Source: an uncultured Erysipelotrichaceae bacterium (GTDB lineage: Bacteria; Bacillota_I; Bacilli_A; RF39; UBA660). Taken from it: DNA of 64,000 bases. The notes under the pieces were generated by a model. That model did no database searches. It was not told the DNA's origin and saw only the letters and a list, made by a program, of their open reading frames with translations. The DNA lies in contig CACYFN010000002.1 in assembly GCA_902773675.1 (NCBI GenBank), positions 1,453-65,452 on the forward strand. The letters are read 5' to 3'. This document shows, one piece after another, positions 1,546 through 30,984 of this stretch; the first letter of the stretch is position 1; each line of letters opens with the position of its first letter. Made by a program: the position numbers and the translations under genes.

Positions 1546-1735
1546 AAAGTATTATAAAATAAGGGACGAAATATCCGTGGTACCACCCTTTTTCATAATA
1601 CTATTATGCACTTAAATTTACTATAAAGCGTAACCTGATTGTTCAAAAGACGAATTCATAAAATACTATCATTCACTTGCACCAACCGTGAACTCTCTTT
1701 GGATAGTTTAGATTACTACTACTTCTTCATCAACA
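1546..1735 (-). promoter_or_regulatory. T-box riboswitch leader, Phe specifier UUC, with terminator/antiterminator
   Basis: The minus strand reads AGAGAG, then AGUGA, then AAUUCG with a UUC specifier. It also carries AAGGGUGGUACCACGG, which matches the T-box consensus AGGGUGGUACCGCGG. A stem and U-run follow just before the pheS SD. Confidence 0.6.
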
Positions 1736-1781
1736 CAATTAAACAAGTTTATAATATCATAATTTTTTATTTTAAACAATA

Positions 1782-19039: not shown

Positions 19040-19570
19040 TTGGAGGCAAATATGATTAATAAAAGAAGCTTATGGTTTTTTACTTTATTTAGTTTAATTC
19101 TGGTACTTAGTATTTATTATATTACGATGCCAAGTGAAATGTTACTTAATAATAATTCTAAAAGTACTACTAAAAAAGAAAGTGTTAATAACTCTAATGA
19201 ACAAGTGACAGTAAATATTGAGGAAAGTGATTTACTAGCTGCTTTAAGAGTAGAATCTGATAGTGAGATGGAAAGTGAGATTGAAAATTTAAAGATGGTT
19301 TTAACTGATGATAAAACTAGTACTGATGATAAAAATAAGGCTTATGAAAAGATTAAAAAATTAAATAATAATCGGAGTGAGGAAGAAAATTTAGAAAAGA
19401 AAGTAAAGGATGAATTTAATTTGGATGCATTTATAAAGATTGAAGATGATCAAATTAAGGTTACTATTGATAGTGATATTCATGATAATAGTTTAGCTAA
19501 TAAGATTATGAGAAGTATACAAAGTAATTATGATACTAATAAATATATATCGGTTAAATTTCAAAAATAG
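19040..19570 (+). CDS. spoIIIAH: stage III sporulation protein AH family protein, encoded outside any spoIIIA operon
   Basis: The N-terminal TM helix KRSLWFFTLFSLILVLSIYYITMPSE and the C-terminal ...NLDAFIKIEDDQIKVTI...ISVKFQK closely match SpoIIIAH. Confidence 0.6.
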   Translation: MEANMINKRSLWFFTLFSLILVLSIYYITMPSEMLLNNNSKSTTKKESVNNSNEQVTVNIEESDLLAALRVESDSEMESEIENLKMVLTDDKTSTDDKNKAYEKIKKLNNNRSEEENLEKKVKDEFNLDAFIKIEDDQIKVTIDSDIHDNSLANKIMRSIQSNYDTNKYISVKFQK

Positions 19571-19671
19571 TTTTTATTAACTATTTTTTAGGCATTTATT
19601 ATCACTTTCTATTTAATAGTTCATACAATAATATGAGAAAATATAGCCACTGTTATAGAAAGTGAGGTAAC

Positions 19672-19875
19672 ATGAAAGGGATATTAACAAAAAGAGAAAA
19701 AGAAGTTTTTAATTTATTGATTGTTAATAAAACTACTAAGGAAATTGCTGATGAGTTAAATATTAGTGAGAAAACTGTTAGAAATCATATTTCTAATGTG
19801 ATGCAGAAACTTGGGGTTAAAGGACGTGCTAGTGCGGTTGTAGAGCTTTTAAAATTAAAGGAAATTTCTCTTTAA
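19672..19875 (+). CDS. gerE: LuxR-type sporulation transcription factor GerE
   Basis: LTKREKEVFNLLIVNKTTKEIADELNISEKTVRNHISNVMQKLGVKGRASAVVELL is close to identical to GerE. Confidence 0.8.
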   Translation: MKGILTKREKEVFNLLIVNKTTKEIADELNISEKTVRNHISNVMQKLGVKGRASAVVELLKLKEISL

Positions 19876-19925
19876 AAAGTGCATTATATTGTACTTTTTT
19901 TCATATTATTTTATAGGGTGATGTT

Positions 19926-20861
19926 GTGATAAAAAGAATATATATTAAGAAAATATTGGTATCTTCTGTAGCTTTATTTGCATTTTTTTTAATATATTTT
20001 ATTCCTAATGATAAAAAGATGGATTTAACTATTAAGCAAGAGGTTAAATATGTTAATAGTGATATTACTACACATAACATATATTTACTTGATAAGGATA
20101 ATTATGTAGCTAAAACAGAAATAGTTATTAATGATAATGAAATAGAAAATGTAGCTAAATATTTATTAACTGCTTTAATTATTGATGGAGAATATGAAGA
20201 TAAGATTCCTAATGGATTTAGAGCTTTAATACCTAGTGATACTAATATTTTAGATATTGAATATAAAGATAATTTAGTAAAAGTTAATTTTTCTGATTCT
20301 TTACTTGATACGGAAATGGAAGAGCAAGTAATTGAAGCAATTATTTATACTTTAACTAGTATTAATGGTGTTGATAAGGTAATAATACTTATTGATGGTA
20401 AAATATTAACTAAGTTACCTAAAAGTAATATTAATTTACCTAGTACTTTAGATAGAAGTTTTGGTATTAATAAAGAATATGATGTTAATAAAAATAAAAA
20501 TATTAGTAAGACTACTATTTATTATGTTAATAAGTATAATGATTTAGAATATTATGTACCTGTTACTAAGATTAATAATGATGAAAGGGATAAAATAGAA
20601 ATTATTATTGATGAACTTAGTAGTAAGAATATTTATAGAACTAATTTAATGAGTTATTTAAATAGTAATACTAAGGTATTATCGGTTAATGAAGATAATA
20701 ATTCGATGATGATTGATTTTAATGATTATATTTTTAATGATATTGAAAGTAAAGATATTTTAGAGGAAGTTATTTATACTATATGTTTATCTATTTATGA
20801 TAATTATAAGGTTAATGAGGTTGTTTTTAGGGTAAATAATGAAGAAATTTATAAAAATTAG
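19926..20861 (+). CDS. GerM-like lipoprotein with GerMN domains
   Basis: GTG start with the SD AGGGTGATG. N-terminal anchor and a two-lobed architecture that resembles GerM. Confidence 0.35.
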   Translation: MIKRIYIKKILVSSVALFAFFLIYFIPNDKKMDLTIKQEVKYVNSDITTHNIYLLDKDNYVAKTEIVINDNEIENVAKYLLTALIIDGEYEDKIPNGFRALIPSDTNILDIEYKDNLVKVNFSDSLLDTEMEEQVIEAIIYTLTSINGVDKVIILIDGKILTKLPKSNINLPSTLDRSFGINKEYDVNKNKNISKTTIYYVNKYNDLEYYVPVTKINNDERDKIEIIIDELSSKNIYRTNLMSYLNSNTKVLSVNEDNNSMMIDFNDYIFNDIESKDILEEVIYTICLSIYDNYKVNEVVFRVNNEEIYKN

Positions 20862-20911
20862 AAAAAAGTACTTGAATAATAAGTACTTTTATTGTATAAT
20901 TACTTTGTTAC

Positions 20912-20988
20912 GTCTCAGTAGCTCAGCTGGATAGAGCATCGCCCTTCTAAGGCGAGTGTCAGGGGTTCGAATCCCTTCTGGGACACCA
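20912..20988 (+). tRNA. tRNA-Arg, anticodon TCT
   Basis: Cloverleaf with acceptor stem GTCTCAG/CTGGGAC, anticodon loop CTTCTAA and encoded CCA. Confidence 0.85.
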
Positions 20989-21000
20989 TTTAGAATATTT

Positions 21001-21030
21001 TAGAGAACTTGCAAAAAGTTCTTTTTTATG
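21001..21030 (+). terminator. rho-independent terminator after tRNA-Arg
   Basis: Stem agaactt/aagttct followed by tttttat. Confidence 0.6.
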
Positions 21031-21054
21031 TTATTATGTATTTAGCAAGAGTTC

Positions 21055-21170
21055 TTGCATATAATAAAAAAGGGAACATTCAGTTTTCCGAGTTGAATGC
21101 CTACCCATATTAATTGTTGAGACATTTAATTCAGCATTGAATTAAGTGTCATTTTTTTATTACTACTATC
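21055..21170 (+). ncRNA. candidate cis-antisense RNA convergent with the small-peptide mRNA
   Basis: A TATAAT box at 21060-21065 and a terminator (ttaattca/tgaattaa plus T-run) at 21132-21165. The block aaaaaagggaacattc is shared with the antisense region of the second cassette. Confidence 0.3.
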
Positions 21171-21241
21171 ATGATAATAAGAAGGAATAAAATGATAGTA
21201 ATGTATCTTAGAACTTTGATTACAAAGTTTCTTTTTTTCAT
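21149..21241 (-). CDS. 30-aa hydrophobic peptide, type I toxin-like
   Basis: MKKRNFVIKVLRYITIILFLLIIMIVVIKK with the SD GGAGG. It is a paralog of the peptide at 30756-30857. Confidence 0.45.
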   Translation of the reverse strand: MKKRNFVIKVLRYITIILFLLIIMIVVIKK

Positions 21242-21339
21242 TATTATCAAACCTCCTCTCTATTTGAGATTTGGTAGACACTTAACTACTAAATGTTCCT
21301 ATATATATTATACTATTTATGAAAGATAAATTCGATCTT

Positions 21340-21777
21340 TTATTGTTCACTTCCATTAAAATGTTTGATAAATACGGATGTATCTCTTATGATATATCCT
21401 CTATTTTTATAGAATCTATGTGCTTCTACTCTTTTATTTCCTGATGTAAATTTCATATAGTCAATATTATAGATACTAGCATATTCTTCTAATTTTTTTA
21501 ATAGTGAATCTCCTATTCCTTGACAACGATAATCTTCATGGACACAGAAATAGTTTAGATAGAAATATTTTTCATCGGTAAATAAGTCATTGTGTATTTC
21601 TACTAAGGCATGTCCTATTACTAAATCATTATCTAGTGCTACTATATCAATAATATTTTTATTATCTAATAGATTTTTTAGACAATATTTTTTTATTTCT
21701 CTTTTAAATATACCATTTAATAAAGTATATAATCCTTCTATATCTTTTGATTCTAATTTTTTTATTTCATAATTCAT
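21340..21777 (-). CDS. GNAT family N-acetyltransferase
   Basis: Motif A CQGIGDSLLKKLEEYA. Confidence 0.7.
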   Translation of the reverse strand: MNYEIKKLESKDIEGLYTLLNGIFKREIKKYCLKNLLDNKNIIDIVALDNDLVIGHALVEIHNDLFTDEKYFYLNYFCVHEDYRCQGIGDSLLKKLEEYASIYNIDYMKFTSGNKRVEAHRFYKNRGYIIRDTSVFIKHFNGSEQ

Positions 21778-21829
21778 ATTATCACCTTTTTTCTATAATT
21801 TCATAAAATACTATGAAAGGAGTCTAATT

Positions 21830-22072
21830 ATGTATCAAAATTATAATAAGCAACAATTCTATAATCAGAAACCTAATAATAATTATCAACAATTTTATAA
21901 TCCAAATAATAATGATGATCGTTTTATTGGTGGAGGTTTTTTAGGACCATTTATTCTAGGTGGGTTAACTGGTGGTTTGGTTGCTCCATTTTTCTATGGT
22001 AATAGACCTAATTATAATTATTATTATCCATATCCTGCTACATATTATTATGGTGGAGGTTATTATCGATAA
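21830..22072 (+). CDS. Tyr/Gly/Asn-rich low-complexity small protein, possibly a spore-coat-like protein
   Basis: MYQNYNKQQFYNQKPNNNYQQFYNP...GGGYYR. Confidence 0.35.
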   Translation: MYQNYNKQQFYNQKPNNNYQQFYNPNNNDDRFIGGGFLGPFILGGLTGGLVAPFFYGNRPNYNYYYPYPATYYYGGGYYR

Positions 22073-22132
22073 CTATATTTATTATAACATAAAGTTAAGG
22101 AAATCCTTAATTTTTTTATGAAAAAAGAAGCT

Positions 22133-23686
22133 TTATTTAGCTTCTTCTACAGCTCTTGTTTCTCTAATTACGGTAACTTTTATTGTTCCAGGATATTGTA
22201 ATTTTTCTTCAATTTTATTTTTTATATCATATGCTACTTTATGAGATGTTGCATCATCTATTTCTTCTGGTTTTACTAGTACACGTAATTCTCTACCTGC
22301 TTGCATTGCGAATGATTTTTCTACACCTTCTATTTCATTAGCTATATCTTCTAGATCTCTTAATCTTTGAACATAGTTTTCAAGTGAATCATTTCTAGCA
22401 CCTGGACGGGTTGCGGACAATGTATCTGCTATAGCTACTAAACTAGATATTACACTTGTTGCTTCACAATCTCCATGATGAGATTCTATAGCATTTATAA
22501 CCACTTCATTTTCATTATATTTTTTAGCGATATTTGAACCTATTTCAACATGGCTACCTTCTATTTCATGGTCTATTGATTTTCCAATATCATGTAATAA
22601 TCCGGCTCTTTTAGCTAGCATTACATTTTCTCCAAGTTCTGATGCCATTATTCCTGTTAGGTTGGCTACTTCTATTGAATGCATTAAACCATTTTGACCA
22701 TAACTTGTTCTAAATTTTAGTTTACCAATAAGTTCTACTAATTCTGGATCAACTTTTGTTATTCCTAACTCAAATAATGCTTCTTCTCCGTATTCTAGTA
22801 TTTTTGCTCGCATTTCTTTTGCTGTTTTATCATATACTTCTTCAATTCTAGCTGGATGAATTCTTCCATCTTTAATTAAAGTTTCTACTGTTAATCTGGC
22901 TATTTCTCTTCTTAGTGGATCAAATGATGATAAAACTATTGCTTCTGGGGTATCATCTATTATTAGATCAACACCTGTTACTGCTTCTATGGTACGAATA
23001 TTTCTTCCTTCTCTACCAATAATTCTACCTTTCATATCATCATTATCTAGATTAACTACTGTTATTGTTTGTTCTTCGACAACGTCACTCGCATATTTTT
23101 GCATACTTTCAATTAACATTGATTTTGCTTTTTTATCTACGACCAATTTAGCTTCTTCTTCTTTTTCTTTTATTAATGAAGCTATTTCTTTACTCATTGT
23201 CTCTTCTATTTTTTTAAGAACAATTTCTCTTGCTTTTTCTTTAGAATATCCTGAAATTTTTTCAAGCATTTCTAACTGACTATTTTTTATCTCCTCTATT
23301 TTTGCTTTTTCATTTTGAATATCATTTTGTTTATCGATTAAATTTTGTTCTTTTTCATCTATTAGCATTTCTCTATTTTGTAAGTTTTCGTTTCTTTTAT
23401 CTAAAGTTTCTTCACGGAAAATTAATCTTTTTTCCATTTCTTTGGCTTCAGATTTTTTTTCTTTTAATTCTTCTTCTACTTTTTCTTTTATTTCATTTGC
23501 TTCTTTTTTTGCTTCGCTAATAGTATCTTTTTTTATTTTTTCTGCTTCTGTTTTAGCTTTAGAAATAATATTTTCTGCGCTATCTGTTGCTTTATTTTTA
23601 CGAATATTGTTAATTATAAACATTACGATTATTCCGACTATAAGTCCAATAAAAATTAGCAAAATGGAGAATACTGTATCATTCAT
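22133..23686 (-). CDS. rny: ribonuclease Y
   Basis: N-terminal TM segment, a KH domain and an HD domain (LLHDIGK). Confidence 0.9.
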
Positions 23687-30654: not shown

Positions 30655-30683
30655 TTGACATTATTTTTTAGTAATAATATAAT
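30655..30683 (+). promoter_or_regulatory. consensus sigma-A promoter
   Basis: TTGACA, a 17-nt spacer, then TATAAT. Confidence 0.6.
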
Positions 30684-30755
30684 GCTTTTTGAAACATTTT
30701 AATGTGAGTGTCTTACCTTTTTATTATATTAAATTATATAGAAAGGACTGATATT

Positions 30756-30857
30756 ATGAGTAAAAGATATTTTATAATAAAATTACTACATTCTATCATT
30801 ATCATTTTATTGCTACTTATTCTACTTATTATAGTAATAAAAAAAGACACTCTGTAA
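30756..30857 (+). CDS. 33-aa hydrophobic peptide, type I toxin-like
   Basis: MSKRYFIIKLLHSIIIILLLLILLIIVIKKDTL with the SD AAAGGA. It is a paralog of the 21149-21241 peptide. Confidence 0.45.
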   Translation: MSKRYFIIKLLHSIIIILLLLILLIIVIKKDTL

Positions 30858-30945
30858 TTTGAGTGTCACCACCTAAATTATAAAGGTAAGACATTCTATT
30901 ACGCATTAGAATGTTTCCTTTTTTGTGCAAGAATGAACTTGCTAA
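30838..30945 (-). ncRNA. candidate cis-antisense RNA overlapping the 3' end of the small-peptide mRNA
   Basis: Minus-strand consensus promoter TTGACA-17-TATTAT (plus coordinates 30974-30946). A minus-strand terminator gacactcaaattacagagtgtc plus U-run lies at 30867-30838. Confidence 0.4.
30891..30926 (+). terminator. rho-independent terminator of the small-peptide mRNA
   Basis: Stem acattcta/tagaatgt followed by ttccttttttg. Confidence 0.55.
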
Positions 30946-30984
30946 AATAATAATATCACTACTATTTGTATATGTCAATAGTTT

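What the first reader, a model, noticed from the sequence alone, without database searches (positions are those of the whole stretch)
21031..21300. Type I toxin-antitoxin-like cassette 1, with a 30-aa hydrophobic peptide and a convergent antisense RNA next to tRNA-Arg
An unannotated minus-strand ORF with the SD GGAGG encodes MKKRNFVIKVLRYITIILFLLIIMIVVIKK, which is Fst/TxpA/BsrG-like: a single TM segment with charged ends. Its 5'UTR (taagtgtctacc) is complementary to its own 3' end (gacacttaa). A plus-strand TATAAT box at 21060 and a terminator at 21132-21165 would give a roughly 100-nt RNA antisense to the mRNA 3' end. The cassette lies immediately 3' of tRNA-Arg.
Basis: partly seen in the sequence, partly recalled or inferred. 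Interest (0 to 1): 0.65.

Follow-up and report, generated by a model that had tools for sequence, protein, structure and literature searches.

The report
Candidate type I toxin-antitoxin cassette
A real, conserved 340-bp module next to tRNA-Arg encodes a 30-residue membrane peptide and a convergent antisense RNA; it looks like a new family of type I toxin-antitoxin systems in uncultured gut bacteria, built like Bacillus bsrG/SR4, but toxicity and transcripts are untested.

Summary
The minus-strand ORF (ATG 21241, stop 21151-21149, SD GGAGG 21256-21252) is real. The same peptide occurs in 28 cassettes from 24 contigs of uncultured low-GC Bacilli. Cassette 1 versus L001 shows 7 synonymous and 0 non-synonymous changes, and the stop position is kept with TGA, TAA or TAG.

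A convergent antisense gene is conserved in all copies. Its promoter is TTGCAA(21009)-17-TGtTATTAT(21029-21037), not the TATAAT at 21060. The RNA spans about 21044-21158. Its terminator is 21121-21150, and the U-tract is templated by the peptide's last Lys codons.

The toxin mRNA (about 21300 to 21065) closes on itself through a 26-bp helix between its 5'UTR and its terminator region. This helix appears in 25 of 25 cassettes and co-varies in diverged copies. It is the architecture probed experimentally for B. subtilis bsrG/SR4.

There is no Pfam, NCBIfam or Rfam match, and no hit in phage, plasmid or viral collections. A second, predicted-orthogonal copy lies at 30656-30978.

Best reading: a new sequence family of the known type I TA kind, working like bsrG/SR4. 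Toxicity, transcripts and antitoxin action are inferred. Interest is moderate.

The parts
20912..20988 (+). tRNA-Arg (anticodon TCT), the upstream neighbour. It is co-oriented with the antisense RNA gene.
   Evidence: ARAGORN; Rfam tRNA, 66.8 bits.
21003..21027 (+). Hairpin (AGAACT / AGTTCT stem, loop TGCAAAAA) followed by a T-run. It is the likely tRNA terminator or insulator. Its loop carries the -35 of the antisense promoter.
   Evidence: Read from the sequence. The same hairpin (GAACTTGCAAAAAGTTC + T6) occurs in cassettes next to other tRNAs: L018, L007b and L012.
21009..21037 (+). Antisense (antitoxin) promoter: -35 TTGCAA 21009-21014, 17-nt spacer, extended -10 TG(21029-30)tTATTAT(21032-37).
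   Evidence: Promoter scan. The same element was found in each of the 25 cassettes with both promoters that were scored; 24 of 25 have the extended -10 TG.
21044..21158 (+). Predicted antisense RNA, about 115 nt. It has SL1 21045-21058, an A-rich linker, SL2 21072-21106, a single-stranded variable linker 21107-21120, and SL3/terminator 21121-21150 with U-tract 21152-21158.
   Evidence: Fold gives -29.4 kcal/mol, z -3.9. The consensus structure has G.U pairs that would be A-C mismatches on the other strand. Covariance model R1 scores 121.7 bits on this strand and 30.6 on the opposite strand.
21060..21065 (+). It lies inside the predicted antisense RNA and is not conserved.
   Evidence: Cassette 2 has CACAAAAAAGG at this position. 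Most other copies have TAAAAT with no -35.
21149..21241 (-). Toxin-candidate ORF of 30 aa plus the TGA stop. The last codons, ATA AAA AAA, template the U-tract of the antisense terminator.
   Evidence: ORF list. Cassette 1 versus L001 shows 7 synonymous and 0 non-synonymous differences; overall pN/pS is 0.39. Profile search finds 46 clusters with E <= 1e-3 among 1.84 billion representatives. GRAVY of the core is 3.7 and net charge is +7.
21252..21256 (-). Shine-Dalgarno GGAGG, 10 nt upstream of the ATG.
   Evidence: Read from the sequence. AGGAGG is conserved in the cassette alignment. Predicted paired probability is 0.5-0.9 in all modelled states.
21273..21299 (-). The 5'UTR arm of the long-distance helix (mRNA nt 2-28, GGAACAUUUAGUAGUUAAGUGUCUACC). 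It has the same sense as SL2 of the antisense RNA and resembles it.
   Evidence: MFE; consensus fold. The helix is present in 25 of 25 cassettes. Swap test.
21307..21335 (-). Toxin promoter: -10 TATAAT 21312-21307, weak -35 TCGAAT 21335-21330. The TSS is inferred at about 21300.
   Evidence: Read from the sequence. The promoter is conserved across cassettes, mostly as TTGTTT-17-TATACT. Mean match is 8.5/12 against 9.5/12 for the antisense promoter.
21065..21106 (-). Toxin mRNA 3' end. It can form a local terminator hairpin (GGGUAGGCAUUCA...UGAAUGUUCCC) with U-tract 21071-21066. Both arms (21105-21073) alternatively pair with the 5'UTR.
   Evidence: Read from the sequence; folds; conserved in the alignment.
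30656..30978 (+). Cassette 2, a diverged paralogue. Its toxin promoter is TTGACA-17-TATAAT. The ORF 30756-30857 encodes 33 aa, MSKRYFIIKLLHSIIIILLLLILLIIVIKKDTL. The antisense promoter is TTGACA(30978-30973)-17-TATTAT on the minus strand, and the antisense RNA runs about 30938 to 30838.
   Evidence: tblastn, 63% identity. Sequence and alignment. Model R1, 56.7 bits. Cofold gain is -77 with the cognate partner and about -3 with non-cognate partners.

Best explanation
Cassette 1 is an autonomous module of about 340 bp of the type I toxin-antitoxin kind.

Components:
- A weak sigma-A-type promoter drives a minus-strand mRNA of about 236 nt (about 21300 to 21065). It encodes a 30-residue, strongly basic (+7), single-TM peptide.
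- A stronger convergent promoter with an extended -10 drives a plus-strand RNA of about 115 nt (about 21044-21158). This RNA is perfectly complementary to the last three codons and the whole 3'UTR of the mRNA, about 94 nt.

Proposed mechanism, by analogy with B. subtilis bsrG/SR4:
1. The free mRNA is closed by a 26-bp helix between its 5'UTR and its terminator region. The ribosome-binding site is partly buried, so translation is poor.
2. The antisense RNA first contacts the mRNA through the complementary single-stranded linkers (21107-21120) and/or the hairpin loops.
3. It then invades the 3'UTR. This creates a long duplex for RNase III-type decay. It also frees the 5' end, which refolds into a longer anti-SD/SD helix (CAAAUCUC/GAGGUUUG in cassette 1).
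4. If antisense supply drops, the peptide is made, inserts in the membrane and arrests or kills the cell.

Shown here (computationally): the ORF is coding and under purifying selection. Both promoters and both terminators are conserved. The antisense-strand structure is selected. The 5'-3' helix is conserved and co-varies. The module is multi-copy and autonomous, and the two window copies are predicted to be orthogonal.

Inferred: both transcripts exist, the peptide is toxic, the antisense RNA neutralises it, and the mode of neutralisation.
For: ORF and peptide:
- ORF with SD.
- 22 related loci in different species-level MAGs, with the peptide 57-100% identical. Further copies bring the total to 28 cassettes.
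- Cassette 1 versus L001 shows 7 synonymous and 0 non-synonymous differences.
- The stop codon keeps its position as TGA, TAA or TAG. The host uses genetic code 11.

Antisense gene:
- The promoter was found in each of the 25 cassettes scored that have both promoters. The extended -10 TG is present in 24 of 25 antisense promoters and 7 of 25 toxin promoters.
- The antisense fold has z -3.9. G.U pairs are specific to that strand. The model scores about 120 bits on that strand and about 30 on the other.

Toxin mRNA:
- Fold z is -7.5 with a 26-bp 5'-3' helix. The helix is recovered by RNAalifold and appears in the MFE of 25 of 25 cassettes.
- In the swap test, the native pairs of cassette 2 and L007b score -36.9 and -33.5. 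Foreign partners score -18 to -26.
- With the 3'UTR blocked, cassette 1 forms an 8-bp SD helix.

Specificity and decay pattern:
- Cognate cofold gains are -94 and -77 kcal/mol. Non-cognate gains are about -3.
- Decayed copies have lost the toxin promoter, 5'UTR and SD but keep the antisense half (L005, L012). One has a weakened SD and no antisense half (L003).
- Flanking genes are unrelated between loci.
- The cassette is invariant in six strain-level assemblies.

Published analogue: the probed bsrG mRNA has 5' nt 1-35 paired with 3' nt 232-262. SR4 binding frees the 5' end and extends the SD helix from 4 to 8 bp, and decay is RNase III dependent (PMC3834814).

General criteria for type I toxins are a length under 60 aa, a TM domain and charged ends (PMC6563280).
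Against: - No expression, toxicity or RNA-RNA interaction data exist for any member. All hosts are uncultured.
- There is no sequence similarity to any described toxin or antitoxin family.
- Thermodynamic modelling does not show a clean on/off switch. The SD and AUG are 0.5-0.9 paired in every modelled state and in most cassettes.
- Covariation rests on a few diverged copies, because most copies are nearly identical.
- Near-identical nucleotide sequences in different species could reflect recent spread rather than selection.
- The 5'-3' helix occupies most of the antisense target, so efficient antisense access is assumed, not shown.
Confidence: 0.72

Rival explanations
1. The cassette is a genuine small membrane protein gene with a cis-antisense regulator, but it is not a toxin-antitoxin pair. 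The peptide would have a benign physiological role, for example modulating a membrane protein. The antisense RNA and the 5'-3' helix would simply tune its level.
For: Everything shown here (coding ORF, antisense gene, mRNA structure) is equally compatible with this reading. Toxicity is untested. Cassette 1 sits among sporulation genes, namely GerM, a GerE-like gene and SpoIIIAH.
Against: - The module is multi-copy: two copies in this window and tandem copies in L007, L009, L013, L017 and L023.
- It sits in unrelated gene neighbourhoods.
- It shows toxin-side decay with the antisense half retained (L005, L012).
- In one copy the ORF is replaced by another hydrophobic peptide within the same RNA scaffold (L009b).
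- It combines a tightly closed mRNA with a stronger antisense promoter.

These are features of selfish or toxic modules rather than of a housekeeping small protein.
Confidence: 0.18
2. The cassette is a non-coding repeated element, or just the 3' trailer and terminator region of tRNA genes. The ORF would be a chance product of AT-rich sequence, and the 'antisense RNA' would only be tRNA read-through.
For: - Short ORFs abound in this 24.7% GC window: 18 ORFs of at least 20 aa within 1.5 kb.
- The ORF nucleotide sequence is unusually conserved.
- Several copies abut tRNA genes.
- Gene callers do not call the ORF in six assemblies.
Against: - Cassette 1 versus L001 shows 7 synonymous and 0 non-synonymous differences. 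SD, ATG and stop positions are conserved, with three different stop codons.
- The peptide profile retrieves 46 clusters from 1.84 billion proteins.
- Most cassettes are not next to a tRNA, yet all keep their own antisense promoter.
Confidence: 0.04
3. The peptide is a secreted or membrane-active weapon or signal, such as a leaderless bacteriocin, a PSM-like peptide or a holin-like lysis peptide. The antisense RNA would be its expression control, not an addiction or stress module.
For: The peptide is small, cationic (+7) and very hydrophobic. No homology constrains its function.
Against: - No immunity, export or processing genes are consistently nearby.
- There is no phage context and no hit in viral, phage or plasmid collections.
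- The hydrophobic core is uniform rather than amphipathic.
- The architecture matches type I TA modules.
Confidence: 0.05

Closest known systems
bsrG/SR4 of Bacillus subtilis (type I TA; Jahn and Brantl 2013, PMC3834814)
   Same: - Convergent genes, with the antisense RNA complementary to the 3' part of the toxin mRNA.
- The toxin mRNA is closed by a long helix between its first 30-35 nt or so and a 3' segment that is also the antisense target.
- The SD lies in a short helix. In cassette 1 this helix is predicted to lengthen to 8 bp when the 3' segment is occupied.
- The antisense promoter is predicted to be stronger than the toxin promoter.
- The toxin is a small single-TM peptide ending in lysines.
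   Different: - There is no detectable sequence similarity in either peptide or RNA.
- The peptide is 30 aa rather than 38, with a strongly basic N-terminus.
- The antisense RNA is about 115 nt rather than about 180, and overlaps only about 10 nt of the ORF.
- The 3' arm of the long helix is the terminator hairpin itself, not a segment upstream of it.
- The location is not a prophage, and is often next to tRNA genes.
- Nothing has been tested experimentally.
TxpA/RatA, BsrE/SR5, YonT/SR6 and the C. difficile CD2517.1/RCd8-type modules (Gram-positive type I TAs with 3' overlap)
   Same: The gene organisation is the same: the asRNA is on the 3' side, partly overlaps the mRNA and is convergently transcribed (T1TAdb paper; Clostridia review). 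The peptide also has a hydrophobic TM segment plus a lysine-rich end.
   Different: There is no RatA or other Rfam match and no toxin family match. The known members are mostly in prophages or next to CRISPR arrays. This family is chromosomal, in varied contexts, and absent from the phage and plasmid collections searched.
Fst/RNAII (par of pAD1) and SprA1/SprA1as
   Same: A toxin of about 30 aa, convergent transcription towards shared terminator sequences, and structured 5' elements that limit translation.
   Different: In par, the antitoxin pairs with the toxin 5' region through direct repeats lying outside the overlap. Here the antisense RNA shows no significant complementarity to the 5' region. 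The 5'UTR resembles the antisense RNA instead of complementing it. There is also no Pfam match to the Fst toxin family.
hok/Sok and AapA1/IsoA1 (Gram-negative type I TAs with a 5'-3' long-distance interaction)
   Same: The full-length toxin mRNA is locked by pairing of its two ends. The SD is sequestered by an anti-SD element.
   Different: In those systems the antisense RNA targets the 5' part or the ORF, and acts on a 3'-processed, activated mRNA. Here the antisense RNA targets the very 3' segment that pairs with the 5' end. The host phylum differs and there is no homology.

Membership tests
Type I toxin-antitoxin systems (generic definition) | Small (<60 aa) hydrophobic protein with a predicted TM segment and charged residues at the end(s) | tested here: met
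   30 aa, core GRAVY 3.7, net charge +7, ends in KK. The ORF is under purifying selection. Criteria are as stated in PMC6563280.
Type I toxin-antitoxin systems (generic definition) | A cis- or trans-encoded antisense RNA gene with its own promoter and terminator, complementary to the toxin mRNA | tested here: met
   Met at the sequence level only. The promoter was found in each of the 25 cassettes scored. There is a strand-specific terminator and structure. The overlap is about 94 nt and the cofold gain is -94 kcal/mol. Transcription itself was not observed.
Type I toxin-antitoxin systems (generic definition) | Overexpressing the peptide is toxic, and the antisense RNA prevents toxin synthesis | not testable with these tools
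   This needs expression experiments. No data exist for any member.
bsrG/SR4 family | Sequence homology of the toxin to BsrG/TxpA-type peptides, or of the RNA to SR4 | tested here: not met
   No Pfam or NCBIfam hit at E <= 1-10. No Rfam hit at E <= 10 apart from chance snoRNA-type matches. No direct pairwise comparison with the BsrG peptide or the SR4 RNA was run.
bsrG/SR4 family | A 5'-3' closing helix (P1) whose 3' strand lies in the antisense target, with an SD helix that lengthens on antisense binding | tested here: met
   Prediction only. The helix is 26 bp, is present in 25 of 25 cassettes and co-varies. In cassette 1 the SD helix goes from 4 bp to 8 bp (CAAAUCUC/GAGGUUUG) when the 3'UTR is blocked. 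The SD effect is not consistent across all cassettes.
Fst/RNAII (par) | Match to the Fst toxin family | tested here: not met
   No Pfam or NCBIfam hit.
Fst/RNAII (par) | Antitoxin pairs with the toxin 5' region or translation initiation region through repeats outside the overlap | tested here: not met
   Antisense RNA against the toxin 5' 70 nt gives dG -25.8, compared with -20.7 +/- 3.6 for shuffles.
TxpA/RatA | RatA-type antisense RNA or TxpA-type toxin | tested here: not met
   The Rfam gathering and E-value scans found no RatA match. There is no toxin family hit.
hok/Sok-like | Antisense RNA acts at the 5' leader; there is a leader ORF (mok); activation needs 3' processing | tested here: not met
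   The antisense gene lies on the 3' side. No overlapping leader ORF is seen in the alignment. Processing cannot be tested.

The most novel reading that the evidence does not exclude
The cassettes would be a self-spreading, tRNA-associated selfish RNA module. About a third of the copies lie 0-450 nt from tRNA genes of eight different identities, nearly always with the antitoxin gene just downstream of and co-oriented with the tRNA. The antitoxin's -35 sits in the loop of the preceding terminator hairpin. Antitoxin supply could therefore be coupled to tRNA (growth-rate or stringent-controlled) transcription. That would make the module a sensor that releases a membrane toxin when stable-RNA synthesis collapses. 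The cassette could also home to tRNA-distal sites without any integrase.
Probability: 0.1. Interest if true: 0.7.

Novelty: new member of a known kind. Interest (0 to 1): 0.45.

Why it matters
- It would add a type I TA family in a poorly studied, uncultured branch of low-GC gut and rumen Bacilli, MAGs variously labelled Bacilli, Tenericutes or Erysipelotrichaceae. Type I systems are hard to find by homology, so such families are missed.
- The family gives about 28 natural variants of a bsrG-like RNA switch: a 5'-3' closing helix whose 3' strand is the antisense target. These include diverged, predicted-orthogonal pairs within one genome. They are useful for testing how that mechanism evolves and for building RNA devices.
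- It exposes an annotation problem. The ORF is either not called at all, or it is read through under code 4 into 87-158-aa artefact proteins.
- The link to tRNA genes and the near-identity across species raise an open question about how such a small module spreads.

Tried and rejected
- The search for homologous proteins refuses queries under 40 aa.
- Exact look-up of the three peptide versions found none in the 15-billion-protein collection. The ORF is simply not called.
- A broad 26-peptide alignment was too variable for the search for related loci.
Deeper covariation sampling was therefore not possible.
- Pfam, NCBIfam and Rfam gave nothing meaningful.
- Viral contigs, phage genomes and plasmids gave no match.
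- A literature search for peptide fragments and for type I TA in Erysipelotrichaceae, Mollicutes or Tenericutes found nothing relevant.
- A thermodynamic test for an SD accessibility switch was inconclusive. The SD is largely paired in all states (the first script failed).
- I considered that TGA might encode Trp, which would give a 44-aa peptide. I rejected this. The window has TGG at 7.3 per 1000 codons and long code-11 ORFs. The sequence after the stop is not conserved as protein. Other copies use TAA or TAG at the same position.
- The TATAAT at 21060 was rejected as the promoter because it is not conserved.

Full report
**What is in the sequence**

On the minus strand an ORF runs from ATG 21241 to stop TGA 21151-21149. 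It encodes MKKRNFVIKVLRYITIILFLLIIMIVVIKK. A GGAGG lies at 21256-21252, 10 nt upstream of the ATG. tRNA-Arg(TCT) lies at 20912-20988 on the plus strand.

The plus strand carries a 13-bp hairpin at 21121-21150 followed by a T-run. The 1.3-kb region has 2 terminator-like sites, against 0.1 expected from shuffles. The window has 24.7% GC and is full of short ORFs, so the ORF alone proves nothing.

**A second copy and a family**

tblastn of the peptide against the window found a paralogue at 30756-30845 on the plus strand, 63% identical. Reading the sequence gives a 33-aa ORF, MSKRYFIIKLLHSIIIILLLLILLIIVIKKDTL. The two cassettes align over about 340 bp, including both flanks of the ORF.

A scan of one genome per species returned 22 loci in MAGs labelled uncultured Bacilli, Tenericutes, Erysipelotrichaceae or Clostridia. 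The peptide is 57-100% identical, and fully identical in six species. A nucleotide HMM and a covariance model found further copies on the same contigs. The total is 28 cassettes, with exactly two in the window.

A profile search of 1.84 billion representative proteins gave 46 clusters at E <= 1e-3. Many are 87-158-aa artefacts in which a code-4 gene call reads through the TGA (…VIKKWHLI…), sometimes into antisense tRNA sequence. The exact peptides are absent from the 15-billion-protein collection. The ORF is also not called in six assemblies of this very locus.

**The ORF is coding**

- Cassette 1 versus L001 (same peptide) shows 7 synonymous and 0 non-synonymous differences. Overall pN/pS is 0.39.
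- SD, ATG and stop positions are conserved. The stop is TGA in most copies, TAA in L003 and cassette 2, and TAG in L007b.
- The host uses code 11. TGG occurs at 7.3 per 1000 codons, long code-11 ORFs cover 81% of the window, and TGA-terminated ORFs would extend by only 4-7 codons if TGA were sense.
- The peptide has a uniformly hydrophobic core (GRAVY 3.7) and net charge +7.

**The antisense gene**

All cassettes keep, on the strand opposite the ORF, a TTGACA/TTGCAA box, 17 (±1) nt of spacer and an extended -10, TGnTATTAT. The extended -10 TG is present in 24 of 25 scored antisense promoters, against 7 of 25 toxin promoters. Mean consensus match is 9.5/12 for the antisense promoter and 8.5/12 for the toxin promoter.

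In cassette 1 this promoter is TTGCAA 21009-21014 and TATTAT 21032-21037, with TG at 21029-21030.

From about 21044 to 21158 the RNA folds into three stem-loops (-29.4 kcal/mol, z -3.9). The consensus fold has G.U pairs in SL2 and SL3 that would be A-C mismatches on the toxin strand, plus a few compensatory changes in the terminator stem. Model R1 scores about 120 bits on this strand and about 30 on the other. The U-tract of the antisense terminator is templated by the peptide's final ATA AAA AAA codons.

The overlap with the toxin mRNA is about 94 nt. It covers the last codons and the whole 3'UTR.

**The toxin mRNA**

I placed the TSS about 7 nt after the -10 (TATAAT 21312-21307), where cross-species conservation begins, and the 3' end after the U-tract 21071-21066. 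The resulting 236-nt RNA folds at -65.0 kcal/mol (z -7.5). Nt 2-28 pair with 21105-21073, which are both arms of its own terminator hairpin.

RNAalifold recovers this helix. It is in the MFE of 25 of 25 cassettes. In the diverged copies the two ends have changed together:
- Cassette 2 native pairing scores -36.9, against -18 to -25 with foreign partners.
- L007b native pairing scores -33.5, against -20 to -26 with foreign partners.
- Shuffled 5'UTRs give about -10 ± 3.

Reading the sequences by eye shows G-C to A-U and A-U to U-A exchanges and a paired U/A insertion (UCUACC/GGUAGA to UCUUACC/GGUAAGA).

It belongs to the runner-up fold (-51.5), which applies while the terminator hairpin is intact.

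The 5'UTR is thus a loop-less, same-sense look-alike of antisense SL2. It competes with the antisense RNA for the same 3' segment. The antisense RNA is not significantly complementary to the toxin 5' region.

**Mechanistic reading**

This is the architecture established by structure probing for B. subtilis bsrG/SR4. There, 5' nt 1-35 pair with 3' nt 232-262. SR4 binds the 3' part, the 5' end is released, and the SD helix grows from 4 to 8 bp. Decay depends on RNase III, and the antitoxin promoter is the stronger one (PMC3834814).

In cassette 1, blocking the 3'UTR in silico replaces a 4-bp SD pairing by an 8-bp CAAAUCUC/GAGGUUUG helix. Across cassettes, however, the SD is 0.5-0.9 paired in all states, so the switch is not demonstrated.

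Complementary single-stranded linkers (21107-21120) are predicted to be open in both RNAs. They are also the most variable part of the family. Cognate cofold gains are -94 and -77 kcal/mol and non-cognate gains are about -3. The two window copies should therefore not cross-talk.

**Selfish-module features**

- Flanking genes differ between loci: MprF-like, HTH regulator, response regulator, VanZ, HD-domain, ABC1 kinase, and one transposase.
- Similarity ends at the two -35 boxes.
- Tandem or nearby second copies occur in L007, L009, L013, L017 and L023.
- L005 and L012 have lost the toxin promoter, 5'UTR and SD but keep the antisense half. L003 has a weakened SD and no antisense half.
- L009b keeps the RNA scaffold with a different 27-aa hydrophobic ORF.
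- Cassette 1 is identical in six strain-level assemblies, while the region upstream of tRNA-Arg varies in one of them.
- No copy was found in viral contigs, phage genomes or plasmids.

**Comparison with known families**

No Pfam, NCBIfam or Rfam family matches. The gene organisation is the Gram-positive '3'-overlap' type, as in TxpA/RatA, BsrG/SR4, BsrE, YonT and the C. difficile modules. The Fst/par hallmark of 5' complementarity is not met.

I therefore file it as working like bsrG/SR4 but not as a member of that or any named family. It is a new sequence family of the known type I TA kind. I found no literature mention.

**Verdict**

The ORF, SD, tRNA adjacency, terminator and self-complementarity hold. 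The promoter and some coordinates are corrected.
A type I TA-like cassette is supported; Fst/TxpA/BsrG kinship is not.
- Confidence is 0.72 for a type I TA that works like bsrG/SR4. The main rival is a non-toxic small membrane protein under antisense control (0.18).
- Interest is 0.45. This is a solid, well-supported new family with a neat RNA design and an unexplained association with tRNA genes, but it is of a known kind and entirely untested experimentally.

Noticed in passing
window 30656-30978 (+): A second, diverged cassette of the same family. It has a 33-aa peptide, a perfect TTGACA-17-TATAAT toxin promoter and its own antisense gene. It lies between a 365-aa ORF with only a sub-threshold camelysin-like (Peptidase_M73) Pfam match and D-Ala-D-Ala ligase. 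It is predicted not to cross-react with cassette 1.
   Followed up: yes
L009:3243-3587: The same RNA scaffold (5'UTR, 3' hairpins, antisense promoter), but the ORF is a different 27-aa hydrophobic peptide, MGKKDFLIFILLIIIILLISLLFIILK. The toxin has apparently been swapped or has diverged rapidly within a conserved regulatory frame.
   Followed up: partly
window 20912-21037; L015, L018, L007 (second copy), L001, L008, L022, L009: About a third of the cassettes lie 0-450 nt from tRNA genes of different identities (Arg, Lys, Leu x2, Ala, Glu, Thr, His). The antisense gene is usually just downstream of and co-oriented with the tRNA. No integrase or boundary repeats were seen. The reason is unknown.
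   Followed up: partly
window 21003-21027; L018, L007b, L012, L005, L015: The -35 box of the antisense promoter sits in the loop of a hairpin-plus-T-run, so a terminator and a promoter are nested. Cassettes next to different tRNAs share the same hairpin sequence, GAACTTGCAAAAAGTTC.
   Followed up: partly
proteins P0001-P0004, P0009, P0012, P0015, P0017: Public gene calls made with genetic code 4 read through the toxin's TGA stop. They create 87-158-aa artefact proteins, some translating antisense tRNA sequence. With code 11 the ORF is usually not called at all.
   Followed up: yes
window 21830-22072 (+): An 80-aa ORF rich in N, Q, Y and G (MYQNYNKQQFYNQKPNNNYQQFYNPNNND…GGGYYR) with no Pfam hit. 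It is called as a gene in all six strain contigs. It may be a low-complexity spore or envelope protein.
   Followed up: no
L001, L002, L006 ORFs versus their flanks: The ORF nucleotide sequences are identical in different species-level MAGs whose flanking genes are unrelated. This suggests recent horizontal spread or extreme constraint. No phage or plasmid carrier was found.
   Followed up: partly
window 1559-1742 (-): A T-box leader (Rfam RF00230, 113 bits) lies upstream of the 353-aa ORF 482-1543.
   Followed up: no
window 19040-23686; L024-L029: The gene context of cassette 1 is RNase Y, a GNAT acetyltransferase, the cassette, tRNA-Arg, GerM, a GerE-like regulator and SpoIIIAH. The host is therefore a spore-forming, code-11, 25% GC Firmicute, despite the 'Tenericutes' or 'Mycoplasma' labels on some related MAGs.
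   Followed up: partly
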